Source: Okamejei kenojei (lineage: Eukaryota). From it: DNA of 64,000 nt. Location: assembly GCA_035221665.1 (NCBI GenBank), contig CM069144.1, positions 61,814,001 to 61,878,000 on the forward strand, written 5' to 3'. Positions 1-63,000 of the stretch are shown here, piece after piece. Made by a program: the position numbers. The stretch's first letter is position 1; every line of letters begins with the position of its first letter.

Positions 1-3000
1 TGCCCGAAGGGCTTTGTCCAATTATTTACGGCTGGGGTCAGCGAACCACAAGGTAGGGTCCCACCCTTTAATAACCAAGTTTATGAAGGGCGTTTTTAAC
101 TCCACTCCACCTAAAGCTAGGTACACACATATGGGATGTCAGTGTAGTCCTCACACTGCACCAGTTTCATCTCTGTCCCTACACCATCTTGCACTCAAAG
201 TGGTCATGCTCATGGCGCTGGCCTCAGCACAATGGGTCCAGACGCTACAAAAACTCAGACTGGACAGTATGGGTTCTTCCTGCAAGAACATCACCTTTTT
301 CGTTCGGGATCTCGTCAAGCAGAGCAGGCCAGGGGTACAGGGGCTCAAATTGAGTTTTATGGCATACCCCTCAGATCCACGAGTGTGTGTAGTATCATCT
401 ATAACCCAATACATAAAGGTCACCAAGAGCTTGAGAGGCTCGGAACTCTCCTTCTTTGTCAGCTACACCAAATCTCACAAACAGGTTATGGTGCAGACCA
501 TCTCTGGATGGATTAAGCAGGTTCTGGCGTGAGTGGACACTGACATTTTTAAACCTCATTCCACCAGGGCTGCATCGACATCAGCAGCAAGGGATATGGA
601 CGTGCCTCTTGACCACATTCTTGCGGCTGCGGGATGGTCGAATGAAAGGACGTACCAGAGGTTTTGTAATAAGCCTATCGCCAGATCCGGGATTTATGCT
701 GATTCTGTCTTAAGTTCTGTGTCACAGTTTCCCCGTGGGTGAAAGGGGTTACTGTTTATTTTCTTTCTTGTAATTAAAGCATTAGTATTGTTAAACATGT
801 CATGTTTTGAATGCATTAATTTTCTCACTCGTCCTGGTCAATTGATGCAGCTGTGACGCGTGGCCTCGTTCCTCGGCATGAAATCACAGACCTTCAAAGC
901 CTCCACGTAGTCATGTGACTCCGAAGTAAAATAGTAAGATTAAATGAGAACTTACCAGTTTGAAGTTTGATCGTTATTTTATGACCGTTAAATAAAATAA
1001 TTATGTCACAAATATAATATCCAATTTTGAAAGGATGTGGTAAGAGATTAATTATTGAAGGCAAACATGTTGCCTTCAAAACAACCAAAATGAACTCCAG
1101 GATGGGAAATGCCATCAGATAATCCATTGGAGAATGCCATCAGATATTGCATTTTTGACAGCTTCCTACCATCACAAAGCGCCGGGTTGGTTACGTTGGT
1201 TCTGAAGCCTGAACCACAACTGCACGTGAAGCTTCCGATTGTGTTGTTGCAGATTTGTTGGCATTTGGAGGTGTTGGTTTGCACATTCATTGATATCTAG
1301 GAGAAAATGCCCCATTATTTCATTTTTCAACAAAAAGCTGAACGTCAAATTGCATCACATTTTTTATATATCATCATGCTATCTTGTGTCAAAGTGCTCT
1401 TCCTAATGAAAATACAATTTATTTCTCCATAACATTGACTCAGCACAATCATTTTAATTGAAGTCTGAAATGAAATTGATCCTAGCACACAAGCTCACAG
1501 CAAATCATCATAAATCTCCAGTTAATAAACTTGCCAGATAATCGTTTGTTGAATGAAGACCTGTAGATTATGTAGGTCAAATGTAGGTGGCGTGGAGAAG
1601 AGAGCAGTGGGCAGCGAGGAGAGGAATAGAAGAAAAGAGAAAGGGGTGAATACCAGGTACCGACTGATAAAGTTGGGAGTACTTGACCAACATACCGTTT
1701 GGTAAAGGGATTGCATTGCAGAGGAGCTGACTGTATGATGGGGGAGCGAGAGACCCTCAGACTGGATGGCGTGAAGGGCAGAGAACTACAAGCTATAGGA
1801 TTGTATGACAAGCAGTAAGGAGGTAACATGGAGACAGATTGCATAATGTTTAGTGTTAAGGGTTTGATATGAGGCCGTCATTTAAAATGGAGGAAGCTGG
1901 AGATGAATTGGGAACTTTCTGATTGCACAGAGGTGGGACTGAAATAGGACACATGATTACAGGGTGCTGGGGTTGGGAGCGTTGGTGCAGTGAATGAACT
2001 AGAATGAGTAGTTGACTTGCCTGGGAGGAATAACAGTTTAACATCATCATAAAATCTATTTGGTCACTTTTGGAACAAGGTGATCCAAGTTCACCTGCAA
2101 TATTTAAAAAGCAGCATGCAATGGAGATTAACAAATGTAATAAAATAGATTTGTGCACAGTTTGACATATTAGTCACACATTGATCAATATCTGAAGGAA
2201 ACAATCCAATCACACCAGACTCAAACAAAAACAAAACTGCTGGAAGATCCCAACCAGTCAAGTGGCTTCTGTGAAAATAGAGACCAGTTGGCATTTTGGT
2301 TCAATGATCCTTTCTCAGGATGAGGTTAGAGTGGGGGTTTACAGTTTTAAAAGCAGAGCCAGAGAAAGGAGTGGTGTGTTAGAGAAAAGATGGAAATGAA
2401 ATAGGATTAGGTGTTAAAGGAGCAAGCATACAAGCGTTAGCAAGGTATTTTACAAATACAATTGAAAAATGAACAAATGCCTGATCATTAAATAAAATAA
2501 TGATGCAGCAAATATTTAACCTAATTTCAAATGGTTGTGGTAAGTGATTAACTGTTGAAGATAAACATGTTGCCTTAAAAACAATCAAAGTGAACCCTCG
2601 AATCAGAAATCCCCTAAGCTAATCCATTGGAGAATGCCATCAGATAGTCTGCATGTTTGACAGCTTCCTACCATCACAAAGCGCAGGGTCGTTCACATTG
2701 GTGCTGAAGCCTGGACCACAACTGCACATAAAGCTTCCGATTGTGTTGGTGCAGATTTGTTGACATTTGGAGGTGTTGGTTGCACATTCATCGATGTCTA
2801 GGACAAAATAACCCATTATTTCATTTTACAACAAATACTGAACATGCCAAATTTCATCACATTTCTAATATATCATCATGCTAAATTGTGTGTCAAAGTC
2901 CTCTTCCTAATGAATAGAAATGTTATTTCTCCATAACATTAATTTAGCACAATCATTTTAATTGAAGTCTGAAATAAAATCGATCCGACCACACAAGCTC

Positions 3001-60000: not shown

Positions 60001-63000
60001 AGAAAATGCCCCATTATTTCATTTTTCAACAAAAAGCTGAACGTCAAATTTCATCACATTTTTAATATATCATCATGCTTTCTTGTGTCAAAGTGCTCTT
60101 CCTAATGAAAATACAATTTATTTCTCCATAACATTGATTCAGCACAATCATTTTAATTGAAGTCTGAAATGAAATTGATCCTACCACACAAGCTCACAGC
60201 AAATCATCATAAATCTCCAGTTAATAAATTTGCCAGATAACCGTTGTTGAATGAAGACCTGTAGATTATGTAGGTCAAATAGAACCACAAGGTGGAATAT
60301 TTGCAGAGAGATTCTGATGCACTCTCATGGATATTTTAACCATTCCAGTCATTGGATTCTAGCCACCAGATTCAGATCCGACTCGTACGGTGTTACATCT
60401 TTTCCACATTGAAATGTGTCTCCAGGACTCCATTGAGCGAGGCTAGTTTGAGGATGCCTAACGTCACGTATCCAGTTAGACCAACGATGTGGCGTGGAGA
60501 AGAGAGCAGTGGGCAGCGAGGAGAGGAGGAGAGGAATGGAAGAAAAGAGAAAGGGGGTGAATATCAGGTACCGACTGATAAAGTTGGGAGTACTTGACCA
60601 ACATACCGTTTGGTAAAGGGATTGCATTGCAGAGGAGCTGACTGTATGATGGGGGAGCGAGAGACCCTCAGACTGGATGGCGTGAAGGGCAGAGAACTAC
60701 AAGCTATAGCATTGCATGACAAGCAGTAAGGAGGTAACATGGAGGCAGATTACATAATGTTCAGTGCTCAGAGTTCGATATGAGGCCATCATGTAAAATG
60801 TAGGAAGCTGGAGATGAATTGGGAACTTTCTGATTGCACAGAGGTGGGACTGAAATAGGACACATGATTACAGGGTGCTGGGGTTGGGAGCTTTGGTGCA
60901 GTGAATGAACTAGAATGAGTAGTTGACTTGCCTGGGAGGAATAACAGTGTAACATCATCATAAAATCTATTTGGTCACTTTTGGAACAAGGTGATCCAAG
61001 TTCACCTACAATATTTAAAAAGCATCATGCAATGGAGATTTACAAATGTAATAAAATAGATTTGTGCACAGTTTGACACATTAGTCACACATTGATCAAT
61101 ATCTGAAGGAAACAATCCAATCACACTAGACTCAAACAAAAACAAAACTGCTGGAAGACCCCAACCAGTCAAGTGGCTTCTGTGAAAATAGAGACCAGTT
61201 GGCATTTTGGTTCAATGATCCTTTCTCAGGATGAAGGTTATAGTGGGGGGTTTACAGTTTTAAAAGCAGAGCCAGAGAAAGGAGTGGTGTGTTAGAGAAA
61301 AGATGGAAATGAAATAGGATCAGGTGTTAAAAGGAGCAAGCATACAAGCGTTAGCAAGGTATTTTACAAATACAATTGAAAAATGAACAAAAGCCTGATC
61401 ATTAAATAAAATAATGATGCAGCAAATATTTAACCTAATTTCAAATGGTTGTGGTAAGTGATTAACTGTTGAAGATAAACATGTTGCCTTAAAAACAATC
61501 AAAGTGAACCCTCGAATCAGAAATCCCCTAAGCTAATCCATTGGAGAATGCCATCAGATAGTCTGCATGTTTGACAGCTTCCTACCATCACAAAGTGCAG
61601 GGTTGTTCACATTAATGCTGAAGCCTGGACCACAACTGCACATGAAGCTTCCGATTGTGTTGGTGCAGTTTTGTTGACATTTGGAGGTGTTGGTTGCACA
61701 TTCATCGATGTCTAGGACAAAATAACCCATTATTTCATTTTACAACAAATACTGAACATGCCAAATTTCATCACATTTCTAATATATCATCATGCTAAAT
61801 TGTGTGTCAAAGTCCTCTTCCTAATGAATAGAAATGTTATTTCTCCATAACATTAATTTAGCACAATCATTTTAATTGAAGTCTGAAATAAAATCGATCC
61901 GACCACACAAGCTCACAGCAAATGATCATGAATATCCAGTTAATAATTTTACCAGATAACCATTGCTGAATGAAGACCTGTAGATTATGTACAGTGCCCT
62001 CCCTAATGTTTGGGACATATTTTGTTGCATATCCCTTGTATGTAATGATTGCTTGAAGTCTCCAATTCATGGACATCGCCAGTTGCTGGGTGTCTTCTCT
62101 GGTGATGCTCTGCCAGGCCTGTATTGCAGCCATCTTTAGCTTTTGCTTGTTTTGGGGGGGTCGTCCCCTTCAGTTTTCTCTTCAGCATATAAAAGGCATG
62201 CTCAATAGGGTTCAGATCGGGTGACTTGGCCACTCAAGAATTGACCCATTTTTAGCTTTGAAAAACTCCTTTGTTGCTTTAGCAGTATGCTTTGGATCAT
62301 TGTCTTGCTATAGAATGAACCACTGGCCAATTAGTTTTGAGGCATTTGTTTGAACTTGAGCAGATAGGATGTGTCGATACACTTCAGTATTCATTATGCT
62401 ACTACCAACAACAGTTGTATCATCAATGAAGATAACTGAGCCAGTTCCTTCAGCAGCCATGCATGCCCAGGCCATAACACCTCCATCACTCTGTTTCACA
62501 GCTGAGGTAGTATGCTTTGGATCATGGCAGTTCCTTCTATCCTCCATACGTTGCTCATGCCATTACTCTGATATGTTAATCTTCATCTCATCTGTCCGAA
62601 ATACCTTTTTTTTCCCAGAACTGTGCTTACTCTTTTAAGTACTTCTTTCAAAATGTAACCTGGCCATCCTAATTTTGCGACTAACCAGTTTGCATCTTGC
62701 AGTTTAGCCTCTATATTTCTGTTCATGACGTTTTCTGCGGGCAGTGGTCATTGATAAATCCACACCTGACTCATGTAGAGTGTTTCTGATCTGTCGTATA
62801 GGTGTTTGTGGATTTTACTTCGGAGTCACGTGAGTGATTCCGTGAAGAAGCCCATTAGTTCGCATGTGCGTCATTACGTCTAACGCATGGCACAACAACG
62901 ATGGCATAACGCATGTAGCTCCACGCCTGCCAGCATTTTAAAAACCCTCAGGTAAGTGTTTAAAACTTAGTTGAGGTCGTTTCCTTGGGTTCTGTTACAG

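What the first reader, a model, noticed from the sequence alone, without database searches (positions are those of the whole stretch)
1170..61711. Expanding array of single-cbEGF cassette exons, amplified in 6-25 kb genomic units
Seen: twelve ~126-nt minus-strand exons, each exactly one cbEGF domain, all ag|...G|gtagga and phase 1-1. In transcription order they run B5-A5-B4-A4-C2-B3-A3-C1-B2-A2-B1-A1, with intron sequence leading to another B just past 64000. Nine are intact with all six Cys and the calcium-binding residues invariant while the introns accumulate indels. A2 vs B1 differ at 13 nt by hand count, 6 of them synonymous. Known: symmetric phase-1 EGF exons can be duplicated or skipped without losing frame, and tandem cbEGF arrays form rigid rods (fibrillin, fibulin, ADGRE families). 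Inference: an extracellular or surface protein whose rod length is changing by recent segmental duplication, effectively a coding copy-number repeat with multi-kb units. Conserved cbEGF proteins normally have highly diverged repeats, so near-identical ones suggest a lineage-specific gene or expansion.
[Added by the scan's program, not by the reader: the finding's places include an assembly gap (unread letters, written N; its length is only estimated) at 39507 to 39767. Whether the letters on both sides are continuous or in frame is not known: test that first.]
Basis: partly seen in the sequence, partly recalled or inferred. Interest (0 to 1): 0.85.

Follow-up and report, generated by a model that had tools for sequence, protein, structure and literature searches.

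The report
Tandemly amplified calcium-binding EGF exon array
Twelve near-identical exons, each encoding one calcium-binding EGF module, lie in recently duplicated 6-kb and 22-25-kb blocks inside one vertebrate gene; this is an ordinary way for repeat proteins to grow, and whether the exons are used in transcripts is still unproven.

Summary
Twelve minus-strand copies of a cbEGF exon are present at the stated places, and all have ag|...G|gtagga borders. Nine are 126 nt, phase 1-1 and intact. A1, C1 and C2 are 127 nt and broken. One exon translation passes Pfam EGF_CA (45.1 bits, cut-off 27).

The copies form three old clades, A, B and C, 10-15% apart. These were then amplified in nested tandem units of about 6 kb and 22-25 kb that differ by 0.3-3%. 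The 6-kb junction has 2-bp microhomology and occurs twice. One unit carries a private LINE insertion with a 5-bp target-site duplication, which argues against a copy-paste assembly artefact. The N gap is intronic and its flanks are collinear with the paralogous unit.

Evidence for selection is only suggestive. dN/dS is 0.26-0.38, but the neutral simulation gives P of 0.07-0.10, and the exons are not clearly better conserved than their flanks (p=0.14).

The gene cannot be named from this window. ADGRE5 is the best solved-structure match, but the match does not discriminate between families. "Expanding", "lineage-specific" and "chondrichthyan" are untested. The array is real and tidy but of a known kind, so interest is modest.

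The parts
61586..61711 (-). Exon B5, 126 nt, intact cbEGF (DIDEC... type; carries N15, I33, N37)
59870..59995 (-). Exon A5, 126 nt, intact cbEGF (DINEC... type; K17, N20 shared with A3)
55430..55555 (-). Exon B4, 126 nt, intact; identical to B1
53928..54053 (-). Exon A4, 126 nt, intact
49996..50122 (-). Pseudo-exon C2, 127 nt: TGA at Cys1, one extra base, Cys6 lost; splice sites kept
30770..30895 (-). Exon B3, 126 nt, intact
29064..29189 (-). Exon A3, 126 nt, intact
25173..25299 (-). Pseudo-exon C1, 127 nt: same defects as C2, plus Cys3 to Phe
8657..8782 (-). Exon B2, 126 nt, intact
7158..7283 (-). Exon A2, 126 nt, intact
2672..2797 (-). Exon B1, 126 nt, intact; the exon used for the Pfam, PDB and Atlas searches
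1170..1296 (-). Exon A1, 127 nt: one extra A in a short A run after the Cys1 codon causes a frameshift; possibly a consensus error
3493..6971 (.). Spacer s, copy 1 (3.5-kb intron between B1 and A2). The other copies are 25469-28888, 50292-53757 and 56252-59699; they differ by 1.1-2.4%
9117..25130 (.). LONG1, a 16-kb transposon-rich intron (DIRS-like RT and recombinase, BEL/Pao peptidase); paralogue of LONG2
31362..47328 (.). LONG2, the paralogous 16-kb intron, 96-98% identical to LONG1; contains the N gap 39507-39767
47329..49948 (-). LINE insertion found only in the third large unit. It has an endonuclease ORF (49548-49943) and an RT ORF (48256-48912), three copies of TTTCTATG at its 3' end, and the 5-bp target-site duplication GTAAA at 47324-47328 and 49949-49953
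62017..64000 (.). A truncated third copy of the LONG start (62017-63120) joined directly to A-B intron sequence (63118-64000). This points to a sixth unit that lacks an A exon, with its B exon beyond the window

Best explanation
This is the inner part of one large minus-strand gene, caught in the middle of a tandem array of cassette exons. Each exon encodes one 42-residue calcium-binding EGF module.

History shown by the sequence. (1) An old triplication of the exon with roughly 150-280 nt of flanking intron gave three types, A, B and C, now 10-15% apart. (2) Type C then died, through a stop at Cys1 and a frameshift. (3) A block of about 6 kb (spacer s, A, B and 0.35 kb) was duplicated in tandem by a non-homologous join with 2-bp (GT) microhomology. 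(4) Blocks of 22-25 kb (C, s, A, B and a 16-kb transposon-rich intron), holding one or two of the 6-kb units, were copied in tandem. Exchange between units continued afterwards: one pair of A-B blocks differs by only 0.28%, while the spacers next to them differ by 1.1%.

Inferred working. The nine intact exons (ten if the A1 frameshift is a consensus error) are spliced in series, or in varying subsets. Each adds one glycosylated cbEGF joined to the next by the standard one-residue linker (Cys6-Asp-Asp-Ile-Asp/Asn-Glu-Cys1). This lengthens a calcium-stiffened extracellular stalk. C1 and C2 must be skipped. Unequal crossing-over between the near-identical units can add or remove modules without breaking the frame.

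Gene identity. It is not determinable here. An ADGRE/EGF-TM7-like adhesion receptor is the best lead, and a matrix protein rich in cbEGF is about as likely.
For: Structure (shown).
- There are 12 of 12 copies with conserved splice borders, and 9 of 12 are intact at 126 nt, phase 1-1.
- Exon B1 scores EGF_CA E 1.1e-11, 45.1 bits against a cut-off of 27.
- Clades A, B and C have support of 99/97, 100/100 and 100/100.
- Nested units appear at offsets of about 6 kb and 22-25 kb (51 self-alignments of at least 500 nt).
- Unit distances are 0.28-3.04% for the A-B blocks and 1.13-2.40% for s.
- The same B-flank-to-s junction occurs at 3493 and at 56252, with GT microhomology relative to both parental sequences.
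- A private LINE insertion with a 5-bp target-site duplication marks the large copies as separate loci.
- The gap flanks are collinear with the paralogue.

Function (suggestive).
- dN/dS is 0.26-0.38 in 5 of 5 A-B pairs.
- On the A and B lineages I count 10 synonymous and 13 non-synonymous changes. None hits a Cys, makes a stop or breaks the calcium-site consensus.
- Simulation with the intron mutation spectrum gives P of 0.011-0.018 for that last outcome.
- The dead C lineage took 10 exon changes plus one indel, against 6 and 6 on the A and B stems, and its changes hit Cys1, Cys6 and Gly28.
- Among 147 ORFs of at least 85 aa, the only family that is not clearly transposon-derived is EGF_CA with its overlapping FXa_inhibition hits, apart from a single weak DUF6341 hit (E 0.00012) that I did not locate. 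The spacers therefore look like introns rather than other genes.
- The best PDB match is ADGRE5, whose third EGF module aligns over residues 1-41.
- ADGRE5 is known to vary between 3 and 5 EGF repeats by splicing (PMC13197933, passage in section 11).
Against: - No transcript, orthologue or read-depth data could be consulted.
- Three of 12 copies are broken.
- Exons are not significantly better conserved than their intron flanks: A2 against B1 is 89.7% against 83.8%, Fisher p=0.14, and other pairs give p=0.08-0.50. The identity profile across +/-280 nt is nearly flat.
- The excess of synonymous changes is not significant, with P(syn >= observed) of 0.07-0.10. Keeping six Cys with no stop has P of 0.08-0.10 under neutrality. 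These tests were run on the copies already chosen as intact, and the choice of residues in the P 0.011-0.018 test was made after seeing the data.
- The ADGRE5 rank is inflated because the score sums over its five EGF modules. Single-module scores (28.0 bits) are close to those of NELL2 and Notch1 (22.7-23.6 bits).
- No signal peptide, GAIN/7TM domain, TB domain or any other defining exon is in the window.
- The u1/u4 pair, at 0.28% with four one-base homopolymer differences, could partly reflect assembly problems.
Confidence: 0.6

Rival explanations
1. A decaying array. The duplicated exons belong to a gene segment, or an unprocessed pseudogene, that is no longer under selection. The nine open copies are open only because the duplications are recent.
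For: Three of 12 copies are already broken. Exon and flank divergence do not differ significantly (p=0.14). The neutral simulation cannot be rejected at 5% for synonymous excess or for Cys retention. Units are only 0.3-3% apart, so 126-nt exons would mostly stay open by chance. The introns are full of transposons.
Against: A and B have been separate for 10-16% divergence, yet both keep all six Cys, the calcium-site consensus and both splice sites, while C, of similar age, lost them. dN/dS is 0.26-0.38 in all 5 A-B pairs. The joint retention test gives P of 0.011-0.018. The A1 defect is a one-base homopolymer difference and may be an assembly error.
Confidence: 0.25
2. Assembly inflation. Some of the units are false duplications, such as haplotype copies placed in tandem or a mis-join at the gap, so the true array is shorter.
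For: An assembly gap lies inside one large unit. Blocks u1 and u4 differ by only 6 substitutions in 2.1 kb plus four one-base homopolymer indels, a pattern typical of consensus error or allelic copies.
Against: All other unit pairs differ by 1.1-3.0%, with many indels. Divergence between the u1-u2 and u4-u5 regions is uneven (0.28%, 1.13%, 2.38%), which allelic copies would not show. Units have different contents and junctions: one or two 6-kb subunits, a private 2.6-kb LINE with a target-site duplication, and a sixth unit lacking A. The gap flanks are collinear with the paralogue.
Confidence: 0.1
3. An alternative-cassette pool. The gene is functional, but each transcript takes only a few of the exons (as ADGRE5 does with 3, 4 or 5 EGF modules). 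The array would then diversify isoforms rather than build one long rod.
For: Symmetric phase 1-1 exons with identical borders can be included in any number. C1 and C2 keep their splice sites and must be skipped in any productive mRNA. Introns of 16-19 kb separate groups of exons. ADGRE5 isoforms with 3-5 EGF repeats are documented (PMC13197933, passage). Varying EGF numbers in ADGRE2 and ADGRE5 are noted in PMC8584163 (passage). Recent amino-acid changes gain or lose Asn and glycosylation sequons, so the modules are not equivalent.
Against: There are no transcript data. No conserved intronic element stands out that could direct a choice between exons (flat profile).
Confidence: 0.3

Closest known systems
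ADGRE5/CD97 and ADGRE2/EMR2 (EGF-TM7 adhesion GPCRs)
   Same: They have tandem cbEGF modules at the N-terminus, and the number of modules varies between isoforms (3-5 in ADGRE5: PMC13197933, passage in section 11; PMC8584163, introduction passage). ADGRE5 is the best solved-structure match for both exon types (9mqr_A, E 4.8e-17 and 8.6e-12). Its third EGF module aligns over residues 1-41, including the PGF...DP..C tail. The family is described as numerically unstable across vertebrates (PMC8584163, passage).
   Different: The window holds no GAIN/GPS or 7TM exon. The Cys2-Cys3 loop here is 3 residues against 5 in the aligned ADGRE5 modules. There are 9-12 near-identical modules here, against five diverged modules in ADGRE5. 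The rank is inflated by summing over several modules.
Fibrillin, LTBP and Notch type cbEGF tandems
   Same: The domain is the same (EGF_CA). The one-residue linker between Cys6 and the next calcium-binding motif is the same (read). Fibrillin-1 and Notch1 cbEGF pairs are among the PDB matches (1lmj, 1emn, 1uzj, 2vj3, 4xlw). That such tandems form calcium-stiffened rods is recalled knowledge and comes from no call.
   Different: Modules in those proteins are old and diverged from one another. Here the units are 97-99.7% identical at the DNA level. No TB/8-Cys or other partner domain was found.
LPA kringle IV type 2 coding repeat (human)
   Same: It is a multi-kb genomic unit that carries whole in-frame exons for one protein module, repeated in tandem at high identity, so that unit number sets protein length. 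The unit is 5.6 kb with 1-40 copies per allele (abstracts of PMC11462820 and PMC6314250, listing). The 6-kb unit here carries two module exons.
   Different: The module is a kringle, not an EGF. In LPA the copy-number polymorphism is measured; here it is only conjecture. The units here are nested at two sizes and interrupted by 16-kb transposon-rich introns and dead exons.

Membership tests
Calcium-binding EGF domain (Pfam EGF_CA, PF07645) | Profile match above the curated cut-off | tested here: met
   Exon B1 translation: E 1.1e-11, 45.1 bits against a cut-off of 27. Four ORFs that span exons also match.
Calcium-binding EGF domain (Pfam EGF_CA, PF07645) | Six Cys in EGF spacing, with the N-terminal D/N-x-D/N-E-C motif and C-x-D/N-x4-F/Y-x-C-x-C (consensus recalled from memory) | tested here: met
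   Nine of 12 copies read D-I-[DN]-E-C-x6-C-x3-C-x-N-x4-F-x-C-x-C-x13-C. Three of 12 fail: A1 by frameshift, and C1 and C2 by a stop with loss of Cys.
Calcium-binding EGF domain (Pfam EGF_CA, PF07645) | EGF fold | tested here: inconclusive
   The single-sequence AlphaFold2 model has mean pLDDT 66 and is helical, so it is unusable. No fold search was run on it.
ADGRE / EGF-TM7 adhesion GPCR | GAIN/GPS domain and a seven-helix membrane domain downstream of the EGF modules | tested here: inconclusive
   None was found among 147 ORFs of at least 85 aa in the window. The 3' side of the gene lies beyond position 1, and short exons would be missed.
ADGRE / EGF-TM7 adhesion GPCR | EGF modules closer to ADGRE than to other cbEGF families | tested here: inconclusive
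   ADGRE5 is the top PDB match for both exon types. The best single-module score is 28.0 bits, against 22.7-23.6 for NELL2 and Notch1, which is not decisive for a 42-residue domain.
Fibrillin / LTBP | TB (8-Cys) domains interspersed with cbEGF modules | tested here: inconclusive
   No TB match among the 147 ORFs. Such domains could lie outside the window.
Coding multi-kb tandem repeat (LPA KIV-2 kind) | Tandem multi-kb units, each with complete in-frame module exons, at high identity | tested here: met
   There are 6-kb units with two phase 1-1 exons, and A-B blocks differ by 0.28-3.04%.
Coding multi-kb tandem repeat (LPA KIV-2 kind) | Unit number varies between individuals, and the repeated exons are present in mRNA | not testable with these tools
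   No reads, other individuals or transcripts were available.

The most novel reading that the evidence does not exclude
The array is a live, length-polymorphic coding macro-repeat in an ADGRE-like immune adhesion receptor of a non-mammalian vertebrate. Ongoing unequal exchange between 6-kb and 22-25-kb units would change the number of cbEGF modules between individuals. Recent substitutions would reshuffle Asn-linked glycosylation sites on the modules. Stalk length and surface would then be variable traits, an EGF counterpart of the LPA kringle repeat.
Probability: 0.15. Interest if true: 0.55.

Novelty: new member of a known kind. Interest (0 to 1): 0.3.

Why it matters
If the exons are used, this locus shows domain-repeat growth at an early stage. 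The founding microhomology junction, the later homologous copying, the exchange between units and a dead exon that must be skipped can all still be read in the DNA. It would be a practical case for asking how fast the length of a cbEGF stalk can change, and whether that length varies within a species. If the exons are not used, it is simply a duplicated, transposon-rich stretch of a decaying gene. Either way the kind of event is textbook: duplication of symmetric phase-1 EGF exons.

Tried and rejected
- **Structure prediction.** A single-sequence model of one exon gave pLDDT 66 and a helical shape, wrong for an EGF domain. I discarded it and ran no fold search.
- **ESM Atlas with one exon.** It returned only generic cbEGF clusters, mostly chordate, with no gene name.
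- **Other searches.** Rfam, tRNA and tandem-repeat scans found nothing that bears on the finding.
- **A conserved intronic element beside the exons.** I suspected one from the alignment, but the 30-nt identity profile between the A and B consensus is nearly flat, so I dropped the idea.
- **Gene conversion between A and B.** I considered it for the two shared states (codon 34 in A4, codon 37 in B5). Both are CpG transitions, which run about 10 times faster here, so recurrent mutation is enough.
- **C as a long-constrained exon with unrecognisable flanks.** Rejected: its homology to A and B extends 143 nt upstream at about 88%.
- **Literature.** Four searches found no paper on such an array. Because the organism is unknown, I make no claim that it is unpublished.
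- One search failed on a mistyped reference and was corrected.

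
Full report
**Scope and limits.** The window is 64 kb, 42.6% G+C, with CpG observed/expected of 0.48 and one N run at 39507-39767. I do not take it for human. It carries ORF-bearing elements of three kinds: DIRS-like, BEL/Pao-like and a CR1-like LINE. That this set is typical of fishes and other non-mammals is recalled knowledge, not a tool result. I did not try to open any paper supplements.

**The gap.** This was tested first, as asked. The left flank aligns to the paralogous large unit right up to the gap edge (38507-39506 to 16132-17144, 97.3%). The right flank resumes at 39770 (to 17205-18201, 98.6%), on the same strand and in the same order, with 60 nt between the two points in the paralogue. 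The gap lies in the 16-kb intron between C2 and B3. No EGF copy is near it, so exon frame does not depend on it. Its letters were neither read nor inferred.

**The observation.**
- A six-frame Cys-spacing scan finds 9 EGF patterns, all on the minus strand.
- blastn with an A and a B exon plus flanks finds 12 copies each.
- The alignment and exact borders give 12 of 12 copies with cctag| before and |gtaggaag after.
- Nine of 12 are 126 nt. They start AC or AT and end in G, which is phase 1-1 and gives Asp at every possible junction.
- Three of 12 are 127 nt. A1 has an extra A after the Cys1 codon. C1 and C2 share TGA at Cys1, one extra base, and loss of Cys6. C1 also has Cys3 changed to Phe.
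- Positions 63118-64000 match the A-B intron, so a further B exon is expected about 45 nt past the window end.

**What the module is.** The B1 exon translation matches Pfam EGF_CA at E 1.1e-11 and 45.1 bits, against a cut-off of 27. The unit reads D-I-[D/N]-E-C-x6-C-x3-C-x-N-x4-F-x-C-x-C-x13-C-D. One residue separates Cys6 from the next calcium motif, the usual tandem-cbEGF linker (consensus recalled). All copies carry an N-T-S sequon. Type A has two more, N-N-T and N-V-T.

Against solved structures, ADGRE5 ranks first for both exon types (9mqr_A, E 4.8e-17 and 8.6e-12). Its third EGF module aligns over residues 1-41 at 28.0 bits. That total sums over five modules, however, and single-module scores for NELL2 and Notch1 are 22.7-23.6 bits. 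Fibrillin, protein S and the LDL receptor also match. ADGRE is therefore a lead, not an assignment. The ESM Atlas returned only generic cbEGF clusters.

**What else is in the window.** I scanned 147 stop-to-stop ORFs of at least 85 aa (all such ORFs free of N) against Pfam in one call. The families found were:

| Family | ORFs |
|---|---|
| EGF_CA | 4 |
| FXa_inhibition | 4 |
| RVT_1 | 8 |
| Peptidase_A17 | 2 |
| Exo_endo_phos_2 | 1 |
| DDE_3 | 1 |
| Phage_int_SAM_4 | 1 |
| DUF6341 | 1 |

(several located). No other host-gene domain appears, and the spacers look like transposon-laden introns. Short exons would be missed by this scan.

**Architecture.** Self-comparison gives 51 alignments of at least 500 nt. 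In plus-strand order the window reads:

unique/LINE-like 1-982; A1 B1; s1; A2 B2; LONG1 (16 kb); C1; s2; A3 B3; LONG2 (16 kb, with the gap); private LINE; C2; s3; A4 B4; s4; A5 B5; 1.1 kb of a LONG start; then A-B intron sequence of a sixth unit that lacks A.

Three exon types form clean clades (A 99/97, B 100/100, C 100/100). A and B share about 600-690 nt around the exon at 82-86% identity. C shares 293-302 nt with them at 84-89%.

The recent layers are much younger. A-B blocks differ by 0.28-3.04% and s spacers by 1.13-2.40%. The join of the B flank to s is identical at 3493 and 56252. Compared with the two parental contexts (B flank running into LONG, and C running into s), it shows 2-bp GT microhomology. 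It was therefore made once by a non-homologous tandem duplication and then copied. Exon states (K17 and N20 in A3 and A5; N15 and I33 in B3 and B5) define two subtypes of the 6-kb unit.

Divergence is uneven along the best long match. Blocks u1 and u4 differ by 0.28%, while the adjoining s1 and s4 differ by 1.13%. This points to later exchange between units, either conversion or unequal crossing-over.

**Real or assembled?** The third large unit alone carries a 2,620-nt LINE at 47329-49948. It has an endonuclease ORF and an RT ORF on the minus strand, three TTTCTATG repeats at its 3' end, and a 5-bp target-site duplication. The second unit has the empty site. Units also differ in content and in junctions.

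These features are hard to reconcile with a copy-paste artefact. Pairwise divergence of 1-3% is also high for allelic copies in a vertebrate (that comparison is recalled, not tested). The exception is u1 against u4: 6 substitutions, a 16-nt indel and four one-base homopolymer differences in 2.1 kb, and one of those four is the A1 frameshift. A1 may therefore be intact in reality, and a small part of the copy number could be inflated. Only read depth can settle this.

**Is it under selection?**
- The intron spectrum from seven paralogous block pairs is 509 substitutions in about 25.7 kb, a transition/transversion ratio of 1.61, CpG transitions about 10-fold faster, and 70 indel events.
- On the A and B lineages I count 21 minimal changes, or 23 with two recurrences. 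Ten are synonymous and 13 are not.
- NG86 dN/dS is 0.26-0.38 in 5 of 5 A-B pairs.
- I ran 3,000 neutral simulations per setting, in four settings, using that spectrum.

| Outcome under neutrality | P |
|---|---|
| Synonymous changes at least as many as observed | 0.069-0.103 |
| No stop and all six Cys kept | 0.083-0.098 |
| The above plus calcium-site consensus kept | 0.011-0.018 |

- These tests condition on copies chosen as intact, and the residue set was picked after seeing the data.
- Exon against flank identity for A2 and B1 is 89.7% against 83.8% (Fisher p=0.14). Four other pairs give p=0.08-0.50. The identity profile over +/-280 nt is nearly flat.
- The C stem took 10 exon changes plus an indel, against 6 and 6 for A and B, and its changes hit Cys1, Cys6 and Gly28.

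Taken together, the pattern of change favours constraint on A and B, but the rate of change does not, and statistical power is low.

**Best reading.** This is a real internal array of cbEGF cassette exons in one large gene, built by nested tandem duplication and still exchanging sequence between units. Nine or ten exons are usable and two are dead and must be skipped. Each usable exon would add one glycosylated, calcium-binding module to an extracellular stalk. I put 0.6 on the whole statement and about 0.9 on its structural part.

The rivals are a decaying array (0.25) and partial assembly inflation (0.1). A variant of the main reading is that only subsets of the exons are spliced in, as in ADGRE5 (0.3, overlapping the main reading).

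**Comparison and novelty.** The mechanism resembles the LPA KIV-2 coding repeat, which has a 5.6-kb unit and 1-40 copies per allele (abstracts listed). The module resembles those of ADGRE receptors, whose EGF number varies by splicing (PMC13197933, passage; PMC8584163, passages). It also resembles the cbEGF rods of fibrillin and Notch. No family membership can be tested here beyond the cbEGF domain itself. Duplication of symmetric phase-1 EGF exons is textbook, so this is a new member of a known kind. It is tidy and informative about mechanism but not surprising to a specialist. Interest 0.3.

Noticed in passing
window 1280 (exon A1), and 2040, 1647, 1547 against unit 4: The A1 frameshift is one extra A in a short A run. 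It is one of four one-base homopolymer differences between units u1 and u4, which otherwise differ by only 6 substitutions in 2.1 kb. This pattern suggests consensus error, so A1 may really be intact.
   Followed up: partly
window 983-3138 against 53757-55896, and 3493-6971 against 56252-59699: Divergence is uneven along one long paralogous match: 0.28% in the A-B block but 1.13% in the adjoining spacer. This suggests gene conversion or a more recent exchange limited to the exon-bearing block.
   Followed up: partly
window 47329-49948 (minus strand): A LINE is present in only one of the large units. It has an endonuclease ORF and an RT ORF, three TTTCTATG repeats at its 3' end (a CR1-like tail, recalled) and the 5-bp target-site duplication GTAAA. 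The paralogous unit shows the empty site at about 25126-25130.
   Followed up: yes
window 11752-13757 and 34007-36136; also 2-529: This is a DIRS-like retroelement. RT ORFs (RVT_1) are followed by an ORF with a tyrosine-recombinase N-terminal SAM-like domain (13101-13445). The ORF at the window start (2-529) is 62% identical in protein to 13473-13757 and to 35807-36136, so a fragment of the same element family lies just downstream of A1.
   Followed up: partly
window 22166-22567 (plus strand), with a second copy in LONG2: A BEL/Pao-type retrotransposon peptidase (Peptidase_A17, E 4.5e-17). Two ORFs matched this family in the blanket scan. A DDE_3 transposase ORF was also seen in that scan but was not located.
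   Followed up: partly
window 4901-5800, 26901-27700, 51701-52600, 57601-58500: Each s spacer holds a CpG-island-like stretch of 0.8-0.9 kb, with G+C up to 0.69 and CpG observed/expected about 1.0. It has long ORFs in several frames and no Pfam match. It could be a GC-rich transposon part or an internal unmethylated island, and it remains unexplained. Smaller such stretches lie at 9901-10500, 32201-32900 and 62801-63200.
   Followed up: no
window 3616-3927 and 4108-4658: These are MITE-like elements with terminal inverted repeats that begin TAAAGGG.CTGT.CCA. The arms are 49 nt at 92% and 25 nt at 96% complementarity. A 10-nt tandem repeat (GACTACCTTC, 5.8 copies) lies nearby in every s copy.
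   Followed up: no
exons A3 and A5 (codons 17, 20), B3 and B5 (codon 15), B5 (codon 37): Four of the six recent amino-acid changes gain or lose Asn. A3 and A5 lose the N17-N-T sequon and gain N20-G-S. B3 and B5 gain N15-C-T. Glycosylation sites appear to be turning over between otherwise near-identical modules, but the numbers are too small to test.
   Followed up: partly
window 62017-64000: The sixth unit is irregular. After B5 come 1.1 kb of the LONG start, joined at 63118-63120 directly to A-B intron sequence. The A exon is therefore missing there, and two B exons would be neighbours in the transcript.
   Followed up: partly
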